From Escherichia coli (GTDB lineage: Bacteria; Pseudomonadota; Gammaproteobacteria; Enterobacterales; Enterobacteriaceae), in NCBI RefSeq assembly GCF_024223415.1, contig NZ_CP100500.1: DNA of 64,000 bases, one strand, 5' to 3'. Positions 5,073-9,251 of the stretch are shown here, one piece after another. The notes below the pieces were generated by a model. It was given only the letters and a program-made list of their open reading frames with translations, was not told the origin of the DNA and searched no databases. The stretch's first letter is position 1. Each line of letters begins with the position of its first letter. Position numbers and translations under genes: made by a program.

Positions 5073-5828
5073 ATGACTGAAGCACAAAGACATCAAATCC
5101 TCCTGGAAATGCTCGCACAATTGGGCTTTGTGACCGTTGAGAAAGTCGTTGAGCGTCTGGGAATTTCGCCTGCCACTGCGCGACGCGATATCAATAAACT
5201 TGACGAAAGCGGCAAACTGAAAAAAGTGCGCAATGGCGCAGAAGCTATTACCCAACAGCGCCCGCGCTGGACGCCGATGAATCTGCATCAGGCGCAGAAT
5301 CACGATGAAAAAGTACGTATCGCTAAAGCGGCCTCGCAGCTGGTTAATCCGGGCGAAAGCGTAGTCATCAACTGCGGCTCCACCGCGTTTCTGCTTGGGC
5401 GGGAAATGTGTGGCAAGCCAGTGCAAATCATCACTAATTATCTACCGCTGGCAAATTACCTGATCGATCAAGAACATGACAGCGTGATCATTATGGGCGG
5501 ACAGTACAACAAAAGTCAGTCCATCACTTTAAGCCCGCAGGGCAGCGAAAATAGTCTTTATGCCGGGCACTGGATGTTTACCAGCGGCAAAGGACTGACC
5601 GCAGAAGGGTTGTATAAAACCGATATGCTGACGGCAATGGCAGAGCAGAAGATGCTGAGCGTGGTAGGGAAACTGGTGGTACTGGTTGATAGCAGTAAGA
5701 TTGGCGAACGCGCGGGAATGCTTTTTAGCCGTGCCGATCAAATCGATATGCTTATCACCGGCAAAAATGCTAACCCGGAAATCCTGCAACAACTGGAAGC
5801 GCAAGGGGTCAGCATTCTGCGTGTTTAA
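5073..5828 (+). CDS. ulaR: DeoR-family repressor of the ula regulon UlaR
   Basis: ORF 251 aa [43 protein letters not shown] (HTH) plus sugar-phosphate-binding C-domain. Confidence 0.93.
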
Positions 5829-6574
5829 AGATGCTGGCGGAAAAATGTCACGGCAGCATCTAACGCCTCAGGCGTAATGCGGTGACGCACGCCTGGCTGC
5901 CATGAACAGGTTAGCAGTTTATCCCGTCCCGTCTCGCTTAAGGCCTGCTGCAAACGTAGTGATTCATCGGCAGGCACAACGTCATCGTCGAGGCCATGCC
6001 ACAGCAGTAGAGGTCTGTCCCCAAGTTGTTCCAGGTGGTTTGTCGCTTCCCACTCTGCCAGCGGCGCGACAATGTTATTGAATTCATTCTGCTGTGCTGC
6101 CGTTTCAGGTATCAGCGGTGGAAACAGTGAACGGGCGAGTGATGTAAAATAGCCCGATCCCATCATGCTGGCGGTACATCTCACCGTGGGGTGCCGAGCG
6201 GTAATCCCCAGTGCCGTCATCGCGCCCATCGACGCGCCACCGACTGCAAGACGGTCATCAAGCAGCCAGTTTTCTTCGGCTATTGCCGCACGTAAAGTAG
6301 TGAATTCCTGCATACTTTGTAGCAAGATTTGCCAGAATTGATTTAACCGCCGCGCTGCGTCGCCACTAAAACGACTACCGTGATCGGGCGCATCCGGCAT
6401 GATCACCCGCAAACCAGCCTGCGCCAGCGCAACGGCAAAATAGCTATACACCAGACTGGACGAAGTAAAGCCGTGATAAAAAATCACGCACGGTAACGGG
6501 GTATCTTTTTGTCCGACAGGATAAGCATGAAGAACGGGAATATCTGCCAGCTCGCGTGATTCTATTTCAATCAT
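5825..6574 (-). CDS. yjfP: alpha/beta-hydrolase esterase YjfP
   Basis: ORF 249 aa [36 protein letters not shown]..., GxSxG-type motif GGASMGA. Confidence 0.9.
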
Positions 6575-6755
6575 CTGTCTCTCCTTTTTGTCTGGTATGA
6601 CATGAAGAAATCCTTAGCACAAGTTTCTGCTGGCGGTATTAGTTCATAATGTTGAGATGTGGGTTACGCTTTCGTCACGTTTTCATTCGAAAATCGCGTA
6701 CCAGGTAACAATTCGGGAACATTCCCCCAAAGTTAAATTAATAAGGCACTACACT

Positions 6756-7085
6756 ATGGTTAGCAGGAAACGTAATAGCGTTATTTACCGGTTTGCCAGT
6801 TTATTATTGGTGTTGATGTTAAGTGCCTGTAGCGCACTGCAAGGTACGCCACAGCCAGCACCGCCAGTAACGGACCATCCGCAAGAGATTCGCCGCGACC
6901 AGACGCAAGGGTTACAGCGAATAGGTAGCGTAAGCACGATGGTTCGGGGTTCTCCGGATGACGCATTAGCAGAAATCAGAGCGAAAGCTGTCGCTGCAAA
7001 AGCTGATTATTACGTTGTCGTCATGGTGGACGAAACCATCGTGACAGGACAGTGGTATTCACAAGCCATTTTGTACCGTAAATAA
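6756..7085 (+). CDS. bsmA: biofilm stress/motility lipoprotein BsmA (DUF1471)
   Basis: ORF 6657..7085 trimmed to MVSRKRNSVIYRFASLLLVLMLSACS (lipobox LSAC), 109 aa. Confidence 0.85.
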   Translation: MVSRKRNSVIYRFASLLLVLMLSACSALQGTPQPAPPVTDHPQEIRRDQTQGLQRIGSVSTMVRGSPDDALAEIRAKAVAAKADYYVVVMVDETIVTGQWYSQAILYRK

Positions 7086-7233
7086 ATCAGACAACTTACA
7101 TAGTCAGCTTTACATTGCTTTGCGTCCCTATGCGTTTACCTGTGCACAATAAATTACCGGCTGGAAGCCTGGGCGTTTATTACCGCGATGGAATGCCCTG
7201 CAACATGTGGGGAAATGAAAAATGGAGCTGACG

Positions 7234-7509
7234 ATGAAACAATTACTTGCCTCACCCTCGCTGCAATTAGTGACTTATCCTGCGAGCGCCACGGCACAGT
7301 CTGCAGAATTCGCCAGTGCTGACTGCGTGACGGGCCTTAATGAAATAGGTCAGATCTCAGTTAGCAATATTTCAGGGGATCCGCAGGACGTGGAACGTAT
7401 CGTGGCGTTAAAGGCCGATGAACAAGGTGCGTCATGGTACCGCATTATTACCATGTACGAAGACCAGCAGCCTGATAACTGGCGCGTACAGGCGATACTG
7501 TATGCATGA
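7234..7509 (+). CDS. yjfN: DUF1471-family small secreted protein YjfN
   Basis: ORF 7222..7509 trimmed to MKQLLASPSLQLVTYPASA..., 91 aa, C-terminal YdgH/BhsA-like domain. Confidence 0.8.
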   Translation: MKQLLASPSLQLVTYPASATAQSAEFASADCVTGLNEIGQISVSNISGDPQDVERIVALKADEQGASWYRIITMYEDQQPDNWRVQAILYA

Positions 7510-7533
7510 GTGTCATCTACAGCAAATGAACAA

Positions 7534-7568
7534 TGCCGGATGCGGCGCGAGCGCCTTGTCCGGCCTAC
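7534..7568. repeat. REP (repetitive extragenic palindrome) unit between convergent yjfN and aidB
   Basis: tgccggatgcggcgcgagcgccttgtccggcctaca has the GCCGGATG...CCGGC REP signature. Confidence 0.5.
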
Positions 7569-7625
7569 AATTTTCACATATTTCATTGAGTTAATCGAAA
7601 CCAGCGTCGCATCAGTCGTATACGC

Positions 7626-9251
7626 TTACACACACACTCCCCCCGTCGCCCGCAGCAATAAATCATTCTGGATCTGCTCTGACAACCGTACGCCGCCGCG
7701 CGTATCTAACATCACCTGACACCACGCCTGCGCCATTGGCGGAGAGGCATATTTCAACATTTGCGCACCGCAGCCCAGCAGGAATAGCTGATGAGTAATC
7801 TCTCGCCCCAGTTCTTCAGCTGGCTTACGCAGCTGCTGCTGTAAACGACGAACCGCGCGATCAAAATAGCGATCCTGCCCTTTCACTTCCACAAATGCTT
7901 CCGACAATAAGTCGTATACGCCCGCTTGCTTATTGAGAACGCGCAACACATCCAGGCACATAATATTGCCGGAACCTTCCCAAATACTGTTTACCGGCAT
8001 CTCCCGGTAAAGCCGCGGCAGCTCGCTCTCCTCGCAATAACCAATGCCGCCCAGCACCTCCATCGCTTCGGCCACAAACGGCATACCTCGTTTGCAGATC
8101 ACAAATTTTGCCGCAGGCGTAAATAAACGCGCCCACAGGGCTTCTTTGGCATCGGCACGCCGGTCCCACGCTCGCGCAAGACGAAACAGCAACGCCGTTT
8201 GCCCTTCAAGCTGAAGTGCCATGCGACTTAAGACATGACGCATAAGGGGCTGTTGGATCAATGGATTACCAAAAACATGGCGTTGATGTGCATGATAAAT
8301 CGCCAGCGAAAATGCACGGCGCATCATGGCATGGCTACCCAGGGCGCAATCAAAACGCGTCATCCCCCCCATTTTCAGGATCAGACGAATTCCTTCCCCT
8401 TCCTGCCCCAATAACCAGCCAATGGCATCCTGAAACTCCACTTCGCAACTGGCGTTAGAGCGATTACCCAGCTTATCTTTCAGCCGCTCGAGGCGAATCG
8501 CGTTGCGTTGCCCGTCAGGCAAAAAGCGCGGCACAAAAAAGCAGGACAGACCGCCCGCGGTCTGCGCCAGCACCAGATGCGCATCGCTTTGCGGCACCGA
8601 GAAAAACCATTTATGCCCCACCAGCCGATAAGCGCCATCTTCCAAACGCTCTGCACGGGTGGTGTTGCTCATGACATCGGAACCGCCCTGCTTTTCCGTC
8701 ATTCCCATGCCAATCAACAAACCGCGTTTTTGCCCACCTGGCAATAAGTGAGAATCGTAGCGATCGCTCAGCAGCGGCGTGGTCCAGTCCTGAAACGGCG
8801 TGGGTAACATCTGTAACAACAATGGCGTAGCGGCAAAGGTCATGGTTATCGGACATAACGACCCAGCCTCAACCTGTGCGTGCAACATAAAACGCGCCGC
8901 GCGCGCCACAAATGCGCCGGAGCGAGCGTCTTCTTCCCAGGCAAGATTGTGCACCCGATTGGTACATAGCGCCTGCATCAGCAGGTGCCAGGCGGGGTGA
9001 AAACGCACATCGTCCAGACGGCGTCCTTGTGCATCGTAGCGCAATAATTCAGGCGGATTCACATTCGCCAGCCGCCCCAGTTCAAGGGATTCAGCCGTTC
9101 CTAACTGCTGACCAATACTGGCTAGAAAATCGCTATCCCAGCCAGCACCTTCACGCGTTACCGCTTCGCAAAGCGCGCCATCAGACAGGTATAAGTTGCT
9201 GTTATTTAATGGTATAGGTTGATTAAAAACGGTGTGAGTTTGCCAGTGCAC
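7626..9251 (-). CDS. aidB: acyl-CoA dehydrogenase-like adaptive-response protein AidB
   Basis: ORF 7626..9269(-) trimmed to GTG start (VHWQTHTVFNQPIPL), 541 aa; ACAD fold. Confidence 0.92.
   Translation of the reverse strand: MHWQTHTVFNQPIPLNNSNLYLSDGALCEAVTREGAGWDSDFLASIGQQLGTAESLELGRLANVNPPELLRYDAQGRRLDDVRFHPAWHLLMQALCTNRVHNLAWEEDARSGAFVARAARFMLHAQVEAGSLCPITMTFAATPLLLQMLPTPFQDWTTPLLSDRYDSHLLPGGQKRGLLIGMGMTEKQGGSDVMSNTTRAERLEDGAYRLVGHKWFFSVPQSDAHLVLAQTAGGLSCFFVPRFLPDGQRNAIRLERLKDKLGNRSNASCEVEFQDAIGWLLGQEGEGIRLILKMGGMTRFDCALGSHAMMRRAFSLAIYHAHQRHVFGNPLIQQPLMRHVLSRMALQLEGQTALLFRLARAWDRRADAKEALWARLFTPAAKFVICKRGMPFVAEAMEVLGGIGYCEESELPRLYREMPVNSIWEGSGNIMCLDVLRVLNKQAGVYDLLSEAFVEVKGQDRYFDRAVRRLQQQLRKPAEELGREITHQLFLLGCGAQMLKYASPPMAQAWCQVMLDTRGGVRLSEQIQNDLLLRATGGVCV

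What the first reader, a model, noticed from the sequence alone, without database searches (positions are those of the whole stretch)
6756..7509. Adjacent DUF1471 paralogues bsmA and yjfN
Two neighbouring small secreted or lipoprotein genes share the YdgH/BhsA/McbA-type domain (C-terminal motif ending QAILY[RA]). One is annotated for biofilm and stress, the other is uncharacterised. This looks like a local duplication of a stress-responsive small-protein family.
Basis: partly seen in the sequence, partly recalled or inferred. Interest (0 to 1): 0.15.

Follow-up and report, generated by a model that had tools for sequence, protein, structure and literature searches.

The report
Known bsmA–yjfN DUF1471 gene pair
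These are two well-known, neighbouring E. coli genes for small cell-envelope proteins of the same family (BsmA, a lipoprotein, and YjfN, an activator of the DegP protease); they form an old tandem gene pair that the literature has already noted, so the finding is correct but ordinary.

Summary
Window 6756-7085 (+) is bsmA (109 aa) and 7234-7509 (+) is yjfN (91 aa), in the core E. coli locus ulaR / yjfP / bsmA / yjfN / aidB, found in 5424 of 5426 complete E. coli genomes. Both proteins pass Pfam PF07338 (DUF1471). They align at 30% identity over 87 residues (E 4e-8), and only these two of the ten K-12 paralogues end in QAILY.

YjfN is not uncharacterised. RefSeq calls it "protease activator YjfN", and papers describe it as a Cpx-regulated suicide activator of DegP acting through its hydrophobic C-terminal alanine.

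"Local duplication" is the best reading, but the duplication is ancient:
- There is no DNA similarity between the genes.
- The pair is conserved in 79 of 79 testable loci from about 25 genera of Enterobacteriaceae, and in Nissabacter (Yersiniaceae).
- yjfN is missing from the same site in Yersinia, Rouxiella, Pantoea and Pectobacterium.

Sisterhood is only moderately supported. BsmA's nearest paralogue is YjfN, but YjfN is equally close to YhcN.

The copies have diverged. BsmA keeps a lipobox, a proline-rich linker and a basic C-terminus. YjfN has a hydrophobic C-terminus and its own conserved CpxR-box promoter.

Eletsky et al. 2014 already cited this adjacency as evidence of duplication. Novelty: already known. 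Interest is low.

The parts
6756..7085 (+). bsmA (yjfO) coding sequence: a 109-aa lipoprotein precursor with a DUF1471 domain
   Evidence: ORF; RefSeq annotation; NCBIfam BsmA equivalog NF011433 scores 152.7 bits against a cutoff of 100.
6756..6830 (+). BsmA lipoprotein signal peptide, with basic n-region RKR, hydrophobic h-region LLLVLML, lipobox LSAC and Cys25
   Evidence: Read from the sequence. A lipobox of the form L/I/V-x-[GAS]-C is present in 77 of 77 intact orthologues, and the +2 residue is Ser in 70 of 77. AF2 models residues 3-29 as a helix.
6831..6911 (+). BsmA proline-rich linker (SALQGTPQPAPPVTDH) and conserved PQEIRRDQT segment, ahead of the domain core
   Evidence: Alignment A3: Q43, E44, R47 and Q49 are nearly invariant. 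AF2 gives non-regular structure for residues 30-41.
6912..7079 (+). BsmA DUF1471 (PF07338) domain, residues 53-108
   Evidence: Pfam hit. The AF2 model has mean pLDDT 90, and its best Foldseek matches are YdgH domains, SrfN and RcsF.
7109..7123 (-). CpxR-box-like direct repeat (GCAAAGCAATGTAAA; one mismatch to GTAAA-N5-GTAAA) upstream of yjfN
   Evidence: Pattern match. The block TTTACA..TGCTTTGC is conserved in the bsmA-yjfN spacer of about 19 genera. yjfN is reported as a CpxAR regulon or iModulon member. That CpxR binds here is inferred, not shown.
7145..7150 (+). Candidate -10 hexamer (CACAAT) of a yjfN-specific promoter; the CpxR box would then be centred near -41
   Evidence: It lies in the conserved block CCTG-TGCACAATAA. 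The simple sigma-70 scan found no consensus promoter, which fits an activator-dependent promoter. This is inference.
7224..7227 (+). yjfN Shine-Dalgarno sequence (GGAG), 6 nt before the ATG at 7234
   Evidence: GGAGCTGACGATG is nearly invariant across genera. The upstream in-frame ATG at 7222 is absent in Salmonella and others, which supports 7234 as the start.
7234..7509 (+). yjfN coding sequence: 91 aa, the small envelope protein 'protease activator YjfN'
   Evidence: ORF; annotation; 100% identical to K-12 YjfN.
7336..7503 (+). YjfN DUF1471 (PF07338) domain
   Evidence: Pfam hit. The AF2 model has the same strand-helix-strand-strand order as BsmA, and its Foldseek top hits are SrfN, YdgH-N and YdgH-C.
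7504..7506 (+). Codon for the C-terminal Ala91 of YjfN, the hydrophobic residue reported to engage DegP
   Evidence: The last residue is Ala in 72 and Val in 7 of 79 orthologues. Its role is described in PMC12096828, citing Kim et al. 2018.
7535..7568 (.). REP-type palindromic element between the convergent genes yjfN and aidB
   Evidence: The sequence GCCGGATGCGGCGCGAGCGCCTTGTCCGGCCTAC and a sub-threshold Rfam naRNA4 (REP-derived) hit at 7491-7565. Assignment to REP rests on my own knowledge of the consensus.

Best explanation
bsmA and yjfN are an ancient tandem pair of DUF1471 paralogues in a conserved chromosomal slot between yjfP and aidB, and the two copies have since specialised.

BsmA is exported as a lipoprotein. 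It has lipobox LSAC and Ser at +2, so by the Lol sorting rule it should go to the outer membrane. The DUF1471 domain hangs on a proline-rich tether, and the protein ends in basic residues (YRK). Genetically it affects biofilm, motility, and peroxide and acid tolerance. Its biochemical mechanism is unknown. By architecture and fold, the best guess is an RcsF-like envelope-associated lipoprotein that binds an envelope partner.

YjfN is a soluble 70-residue periplasmic protein. It is transcribed from its own promoter, which carries a conserved CpxR box, so it is made under envelope stress. Its exposed hydrophobic C-terminal Ala, together with its own degradability, lets it bind DegP, switch the protease on, and be consumed (a 'suicide activator').

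Status of each step:
- Shown here: homology, fold, lipobox, conservation of the C-terminus, synteny, and conservation of the CpxR-like box.
- Taken from papers: DegP activation, Cpx induction, and the bsmA mutant phenotypes.
- Inferred: the tandem-duplication origin, outer-membrane localisation of BsmA, CpxR binding at 7109-7123, and the RcsF-like role.
For: - Identity and homology.
- Fold: the AF2 models (pLDDT 90 and 77) best match solved DUF1471 domains and RcsF.
- Purifying selection on both genes: dN/dS about 0.12 for bsmA and 0.07 for yjfN.
- Tandem arrangement: yjfP(-) bsmA(+) yjfN(+) aidB(-) in 79 of 79 testable loci from about 25 genera, and also in Nissabacter and Edaphovirga.
- Closest-paralogue evidence:
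  - BsmA's best E. coli hit is YjfN (33.5 bits; the next is 21.6).
  - HHalign gives BsmA to YjfN 92, against 76 for YhcN.
  - The NJ tree of 162 domains has a BsmA+YjfN split, and YjfN+YhcN appears in 0 of 200 bootstraps.
  - E. coli YjfN hits Rouxiella and Edaphovirga BsmA (52 and 47 bits) better than YhcN (42 bits).
  - A 3-residue longer beta-hairpin loop is shared by YjfN and BsmA but not YhcN.
  - The QAILY motif is shared only by these two.
- Specialisation: the lipobox is present in 77 of 77 BsmA orthologues, the BsmA C-terminus is basic, and the YjfN C-terminus is Ala or Val in 79 of 79.
- Regulation: a conserved CpxR-like box.
- Literature: YjfN as a DegP/DegQ suicide activator and Cpx regulon member; bsmA phenotypes; adjacency already read as duplication.
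Against: - Sisterhood is not strongly resolved. NJ bootstrap for BsmA+YjfN is 30% strict and 50% relaxed.
- YjfN's best E. coli hit is YhcN (42 against 29 bits), and HHalign gives YjfN to YhcN 93 against 88 for BsmA.
- yjfN is absent from the slot in Yersinia, Rouxiella, Pantoea and Pectobacterium. The history therefore needs several losses, or a transfer.
- One CpxR-like site in a 64-kb window is not significant on its own (7 matches found, 3.15 expected). A ChIP-exo study did not list yjfN as a direct CpxR target under ethanol stress.
- The E. coli YjfN signal peptide is unusually weak.
- No biochemical mechanism is known for BsmA, and the primary papers (Weber 2010, Kim 2018) could not be read here.
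Confidence: 0.7

Rival explanations
1. The genes are adjacent without being sisters. yjfN would descend from a yhcN-like gene that was relocated or transferred next to bsmA, so the neighbourhood of two family members reflects chance or selection for linkage rather than a local duplication.
For: YjfN's best E. coli paralogue by BLASTP is YhcN (42.4 bits, 38% identity, against 29.3 bits for BsmA). The NCBIfam YhcN model scores YjfN at 52.0 bits against 51.7 for the BsmA model. HHalign gives 93 against 88. The Nissabacter YjfN-like protein hits YhcN (52 bits) above any BsmA (43 bits or less). yjfN also has a patchy distribution across families.
Against: YjfN+YhcN never forms a split in 200 NJ bootstraps, whereas BsmA+YjfN is in the point-estimate tree. 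YhcN lacks the 3-residue loop extension that YjfN and BsmA share. E. coli YjfN scores higher against the slower-evolving BsmA proteins of Rouxiella and Edaphovirga than against YhcN. The same-strand, 39-210 bp tandem layout is what an unequal-crossover duplication leaves behind.
Confidence: 0.2
2. A recent, lineage-specific local duplication in E. coli, which is the simplest reading of the first reader's wording.
For: None beyond the adjacency and the same orientation.
Against: The proteins are only 30% identical. There is no in-register DNA repeat between the genes. The pair is present in 5424 of 5426 E. coli genomes, in about 25 genera of Enterobacteriaceae, and in Nissabacter. Paralogue identity within a genome is 29-44% everywhere.
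Confidence: 0.01
3. yjfN was gained once, next to an older bsmA, in a common ancestor of Enterobacteriaceae. Its presence in Nissabacter and Edaphovirga would then be due to horizontal transfer of the bsmA-yjfN segment, or to an independent duplication there.
For: bsmA alone occupies the slot in Yersinia, Rouxiella, Pantoea and Pectobacterium. BsmA orthologues are much more widely distributed than YjfN. The Nissabacter and Edaphovirga proteins end in Arg, unlike all 79 Enterobacteriaceae YjfN proteins.
Against: The Nissabacter and Edaphovirga proteins are closer to E. coli YjfN (57-75 bits) than to their own neighbouring BsmA (38-58 bits), which argues against independent duplication. Their BsmA proteins group with Yersinia BsmA, not with Enterobacteriaceae BsmA, which argues against transfer of the whole segment.
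Confidence: 0.09

Closest known systems
E. coli K-12 bsmA (yjfO, b4189) and yjfN (b4188)
   Same: The locus and gene order are the same. YjfN is 100% identical, and BsmA differs by one residue (R75 in the window, K75 in K-12).
   Different: Nothing of substance. The window comes from another E. coli strain; the 1.9-kb stretch tested (window 5800-7700) is 100% identical to several strains, including S51.
DUF1471 / YhcN / YdgH_BhsA-like family (PF07338); solved members SrfN, YahO and YdgH/SssB (Eletsky et al. 2014, PMC4092069)
   Same: Both proteins match the domain HMM. They have the alpha+beta fold, an N-terminal export signal, and a distribution restricted to Enterobacterales. That paper already lists yjfN/yjfO adjacency as evidence of expansion by duplication.
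   Different: Of the ten K-12 paralogues read here, BsmA is the only one with a lipobox. YjfN is the only one ending in a hydrophobic residue, and it has the weakest signal peptide.
RcsF, the outer-membrane sensor lipoprotein
   Same: The BsmA model matches RcsF structures 2l8y and 2y1b (TM-score 0.53-0.66). Both proteins are built as lipobox, then proline-rich or disordered linker, then a small alpha+beta domain. NCBIfam shows a weak match of the BsmA N-terminus to RcsF (E 0.079).
   Different: There is no significant sequence homology in the domain. BsmA lacks the RcsF disulfide cysteines. No link between BsmA and Rcs signalling or OMP threading has been tested. This is a resemblance, not membership.
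CpxP, the Cpx-induced periplasmic adaptor degraded together with its substrate by DegP
   Same: Like YjfN, it is a small Cpx-induced periplasmic protein that works with DegP and is consumed in the process.
   Different: The fold and family are unrelated. In the CsgA assays YjfN enabled DegP degradation and CpxP did not.

Membership tests
PF07338 YdgH_BhsA-like (DUF1471) | Match to the Pfam HMM above the gathering score (27 bits) | tested here: met
   BsmA scores 56.9 bits and YjfN 63.2 bits, both over nearly the full model.
PF07338 YdgH_BhsA-like (DUF1471) | Mixed alpha+beta fold as in SrfN, YahO and YdgH | tested here: met
   The AF2 models have pLDDT 90.2 (BsmA) and 76.7 (YjfN). Foldseek top hits are 2m2j, 4evu, 2jna and 2ma8, with target-normalised TM-scores up to 0.79-0.85. 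These are predictions, not solved structures.
PF07338 YdgH_BhsA-like (DUF1471) | N-terminal signal for export to the envelope | tested here: inconclusive
   BsmA has a clear lipoprotein signal. E. coli YjfN has a basic n-region and an ATA-Q cleavage-like site, but a very weak h-region (Kyte-Doolittle maximum 1.19 against 2.0-3.4 in the other paralogues) with two prolines. No signal-peptide predictor was available.
BsmA equivalog (NCBIfam NF011433) | Score above the curated cutoff of 100 bits | tested here: met
   152.7 bits. YjfN scores 51.7 bits, so it is not a BsmA.
Bacterial lipoprotein (BsmA) | Lipobox [LVI][ASTVI][GAS]C after a basic n-region and a hydrophobic h-region, with the Cys conserved | tested here: met
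   The lipobox is LSAC with Cys25. Of 77 orthologues, 65 fit the strict pattern and 12 have C, G or N at the second position; the Cys is present in all 77. Actual lipidation was not tested.
Bacterial lipoprotein (BsmA) | Outer-membrane sorting (no Asp at +2) | tested here: met
   The +2 residue is S, A, T or Q and never D. Localisation itself cannot be tested here.
YjfN, DegP suicide activator (Kim et al. 2018) | Sequence identity to the characterised E. coli protein | tested here: met
   100% identical to K-12 YjfN, which RefSeq names 'protease activator YjfN'.
YjfN, DegP suicide activator (Kim et al. 2018) | Hydrophobic C-terminal residue | tested here: met
   Ala91 in the window. Of 79 orthologues, 72 end in Ala and 7 in Val. 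BsmA ends in RK, and the Nissabacter and Edaphovirga homologues end in R.
YjfN, DegP suicide activator (Kim et al. 2018) | Activation of DegP proteolysis, and its own degradation by DegP | not testable with these tools
   Known only from papers. The primary paper is not held.
CpxR regulon (yjfN) | CpxR box GTAAA-N5-GTAAA in the promoter region | tested here: inconclusive
   There is a one-mismatch box at 7109-7123, conserved across about 19 genera. Window-wide, such matches are not enriched (7 found, 3.15 expected), and binding was not tested.
CpxR regulon (yjfN) | Cpx-dependent induction | not testable with these tools
   Papers place yjfN in the CpxR iModulon, although it was not a ChIP-exo direct target under ethanol stress. 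It is listed as CpxAR-regulated and was induced in Salmonella exposed to egg white.
RcsF-like sensor lipoprotein (considered for BsmA) | Conserved disulfide-forming cysteines, and signalling to IgaA/Rcs | tested here: not met
   Mature BsmA has no cysteine other than the lipidated Cys25. Only the fold and architecture resemble RcsF. BsmA is therefore not filed as RcsF.

The most novel reading that the evidence does not exclude
The Escherichia-specific decay of the YjfN signal peptide might make export of YjfN inefficient or conditional. The evidence is its sequence (MKQLLASPSLQLVTYPASATAQ, with two prolines), the lowest hydrophobicity of all ten paralogues, and the lack of a predicted helix, while the mature protein stays under strong purifying selection. 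If export is limited, export itself would be a regulatory layer, or part of the protein would act or accumulate in the cytoplasm. That could connect to the unexplained observation that multicopy yjfN rescues a strain lacking all cytoplasmic prolyl isomerases (PMC7461557).

A second, milder novel reading is that the DegP-activating hydrophobic C-terminus is a late innovation of Enterobacteriaceae on an older tandem copy. The Nissabacter and Edaphovirga orthologues still end in Arg, as BsmA does.
Probability: 0.15. Interest if true: 0.4.

Novelty: already known. Interest (0 to 1): 0.12.

Why it matters
It matters little for discovery. Both genes, their family and even their adjacency as a sign of duplication are already in the literature and in RefSeq.

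The pair is still a tidy example of how a small-protein family diversifies. One ancestral envelope domain gave rise to a tethered lipoprotein and to a soluble, stress-induced protease activator, and the two differ mainly at their two termini and in their promoter. The comparative series found here could serve anyone studying how the Cpx/DegP quality-control system recruits new parts. That series runs from bsmA alone, to bsmA with a yjfN-like gene ending in Arg, to bsmA with a yjfN ending in Ala/Val and carrying a CpxR box.

Tried and rejected
- DNA-level repeat between the two genes. Only short matches turned up; the one checked by hand (D2) is out of register, so recent duplication is rejected.
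- Consensus sigma-70 promoters and terminators in 6500-7700. No promoter was found, and the only terminator-like site is inside bsmA on the wrong strand. No intrinsic terminator separates bsmA from yjfN, so read-through cannot be excluded.
- Rfam on 6400-7800. Only a sub-threshold REP-derived naRNA4 hit downstream of yjfN; there is no known RNA family in the spacer.
- A conserved yjfN 5'UTR structure. RNAalifold gave -1.4 kcal/mol and no covariation. Single-sequence folds are no more stable than shuffles (mean z +0.7). This is not claimed as an RNA element.
- Sequence search of the PDB. There is no solved structure of either protein, only marginal hits to YdgH-N and SrfN.
- The hypothesis that yjfN is an Enterobacteriaceae-only gain. 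I held this after and dropped it after finding syntenic yjfN-like genes in Nissabacter and Edaphovirga.
- The idea that the YjfN signal region is a decayed BsmA lipobox. It would need an 8-residue register shift, and signal-peptide composition is generic, so it is not claimed.
- Primary papers Kim et al. 2018 and Weber et al. 2010. Neither is held, so their content is cited only through papers that describe them.

Full report
**What is there**

The window is E. coli chromosome. A 1.9-kb stretch around the finding (window 5800-7700) is 100% identical to several complete genomes, and it is present in 5424 of 5426 complete E. coli genomes. In RefSeq the region reads ulaG, ulaR (+), yjfP (-), bsmA (+), yjfN (+), aidB (-). 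The finding's coordinates run exactly from the bsmA start (6756) to the yjfN stop (7509). The window's YjfN is identical to K-12 YjfN, and its BsmA differs at one residue.

**Check of the observation**

- Both proteins pass Pfam PF07338, at 56.9 and 63.2 bits against a cutoff of 27.
- BsmA passes the NCBIfam BsmA equivalog, at 152.7 bits against a cutoff of 100.
- BLASTP between the two gives 30% identity over 87 residues, E 4e-8.
- Among the ten K-12 paralogues, which I fetched and translated, only these two end in QAILY.
- A family HMM finds no third member in the 64-kb window. yjfY, another member, lies about 1 kb beyond the window start.
- AF2 models of both proteins have the same strand-helix-strand-strand core. 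Their best matches are the solved DUF1471 domains of YdgH and SrfN, followed by RcsF.
- Both genes are under purifying selection, with dN/dS about 0.12 for bsmA and 0.07 for yjfN. dS is near saturation, so these values are rough.

yjfN is not uncharacterised. RefSeq names it "protease activator YjfN". Papers held here describe it in several ways:
- as an "activator and substrate of DegP";
- as a suicide activator that allows DegP and DegQ to degrade CsgA in vitro;
- as a CpxAR-regulated envelope gene.

All of these cite Kim et al. 2018, J Bacteriol 200, which I could not read. The bsmA phenotypes (biofilm, motility, acid and peroxide sensitivity) come from Weber et al. 2010, as reported by others.

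**Is it a local duplication?**

The duplication is not recent. The two genes share no in-register DNA repeat.

A scan of one genome per species with a YjfN alignment returned 148 loci, and the best 80 were kept. Of the 79 that can be tested, all have yjfP(-) bsmA(+) yjfN(+) aidB(-), usually with a 122-160 bp spacer between bsmA and yjfN. They come from about 25 genera of Enterobacteriaceae.

Outside that family, BsmA orthologues are widespread: Pantoea, Pectobacterium, Yersinia and Rouxiella all have one. In Yersinia, Rouxiella and Pantoea, bsmA lies between yjfP and aidB with no yjfN. In Pectobacterium, bsmA lies in the same rlmB-rnr neighbourhood, next to a yjfL-like gene, again with no yjfN. 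That pattern first suggested a gain of yjfN in Enterobacteriaceae.

Two more look-ups corrected that view. Nissabacter (Yersiniaceae) and Edaphovirga each have a 91-aa yjfN-like gene between bsmA and aidB. That protein is closer to E. coli YjfN (57-75 bits) than to its own neighbouring BsmA (38-58 bits). The tandem pair is therefore at least as old as the split of these lineages, and yjfN has a patchy distribution, through losses or, less likely, transfer.

**Are the two sisters?**

Evidence for:
- BsmA's best E. coli paralogue is YjfN, at 33.5 bits against 21.6 for the next.
- Profile-profile comparison agrees: 92 for YjfN against 76 for YhcN.
- An NJ tree of 162 domains, drawn from a search of 1.84 billion representative proteins (508 clusters at E 0.001 or better), contains a BsmA+YjfN split. 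YjfN+YhcN never appears in 200 bootstraps.
- YjfN and BsmA share a beta-hairpin loop that is three residues longer than in YhcN.
- E. coli YjfN scores higher against the slower-evolving BsmA proteins of Rouxiella and Edaphovirga than against YhcN.

Evidence against:
- Bootstrap support is only 30% strict and 50% relaxed.
- YjfN's best E. coli hit is YhcN.
- HHalign gives YjfN to YhcN 93 against 88 for BsmA.

The asymmetry has an explanation. Enterobacteriaceae BsmA evolves faster than YjfN: mean identity among orthologues of the mature protein is 72% for BsmA and 86% for YjfN. YjfN is also more similar to outgroup BsmA (36.5%) than to Enterobacteriaceae BsmA (32.8%). My estimate is about 0.7 for an ancient tandem duplication and about 0.2 for a yhcN-like gene having landed next to bsmA.

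**How the two copies differ, and how they probably work**

BsmA:
- It has a basic n-region, a hydrophobic h-region and lipobox LSAC. The lipobox is present in 77 of 77 orthologues, and the +2 residue is never Asp.
- It has a proline-rich tether and a conserved PQEIRRNQT segment.
- Its C-terminus is basic.
- This predicts an outer-membrane lipoprotein with the domain on a flexible tether. That is the same architecture, and by Foldseek the same fold class, as RcsF. BsmA lacks the RcsF cysteines, so it is an analogue at most.

YjfN:
- It lacks the lipobox and the tether.
- It ends in Ala or Val in 79 of 79 orthologues.
- It has its own upstream region, which is more conserved than expected for a spacer. 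This contains a one-mismatch CpxR box at 7109-7123, lying in a block conserved across about 19 genera, followed by CCTG-TGCACAATAA.
- If CACAAT (7145-7150) is the -10 element, the box is centred near -41, the position of a class II activator. That step is inference.
- The Shine-Dalgarno GGAG and the ATG at 7234 are nearly invariant. The upstream ATG at 7222 is not.
- The Nissabacter and Edaphovirga proteins end in Arg. The hydrophobic C-terminus may therefore be a later change.

**Comparison with what is known, and verdict**

Eletsky et al. [quoted passage not shown]

All three are incremental. Novelty is "already known", and interest is low (0.12).

Noticed in passing
window 7234-7299 (YjfN residues 1-22): The Escherichia YjfN signal region (MKQLLASPSLQLVTYPASATAQ) is the least hydrophobic of the ten K-12 DUF1471 paralogues (maximum 9-residue Kyte-Doolittle score 1.19 against 2.0-3.4) and contains two prolines. 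AF2 gives it pLDDT below 50 and no helix. Most other genera have LALSSLLLSAGL at this position. Pluralibacter, Superficieibacter and Intestinirhabdus are also weak. The mature protein is highly conserved.
   Followed up: partly
L095 4653-5276 (Nissabacter); L096 4483-5276 (Edaphovirga); L092, L093, L094, L088, L089: A yjfN-like gene sits between bsmA and aidB in Nissabacter (39-bp spacer) and in Edaphovirga, but its product ends in ...LYR or ...IYR. Yersinia, Rouxiella and Pantoea have bsmA directly against aidB, and Pectobacterium has bsmA in the same neighbourhood next to a yjfL-like gene; none has yjfN. The gene is therefore patchy across Enterobacterales.
   Followed up: yes
L092 3652-5309 (Yersinia): In Yersinia a third family member, yjfY, lies immediately beside yjfP and bsmA, next to rpsF-priB-rpsR-rplI. 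In E. coli the whole ula operon separates them, and yjfY falls about 1 kb outside the window start. This hints at an older local cluster of DUF1471 genes.
   Followed up: partly
L010 4523-4852 (Escherichia albertii NBRC 107761): bsmA carries two in-frame stop codons (DHP*EIRR and TGQ*YSQ), while the adjacent yjfN is intact. It is either a pseudogene in this type strain or an assembly error.
   Followed up: no
L009, L011, L012 (Escherichia spp.), between bsmA and yjfN: The spacer is 341-419 bp here, against 148 bp in the window, so something has been inserted between the two genes in some Escherichia lineages. Its nature was not examined.
   Followed up: no
window 7535-7568: A REP-type palindrome (GCCGGATGCGGCGCGAGCGCCTTGTCCGGCCTAC) lies between the convergent genes yjfN and aidB. 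Rfam gives a sub-threshold hit to the REP-derived naRNA4 (29.8 bits against a gathering score of 59.5).
   Followed up: partly
window 7196-7212: A small hairpin (CCCUGCA-ACA-UGUGGGG) lies in the yjfN 5'UTR, about 12 nt before the Shine-Dalgarno sequence. Many genera have a hairpin at this position with a different loop or register. However, RNAalifold finds no covariation, and the folds are no more stable than shuffles. A conserved GGA motif (GAUGGAAUGCCC) lies just upstream.
   Followed up: partly
L046, L050, L052, L057-L064 and others, downstream of yjfN: In Enterobacter, Lelliottia, Leclercia, Kosakonia and Phytobacter, about 2 kb of extra DNA separates yjfN from aidB (aidB starts near 7330 instead of near 5300 in locus coordinates). 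The content was not examined.
   Followed up: no
window 7086-7108: No intrinsic terminator is predicted after bsmA, and the first 20-25 bp of the spacer are not conserved. bsmA transcripts may therefore read through into yjfN, in addition to transcription from the yjfN-specific promoter.
   Followed up: no
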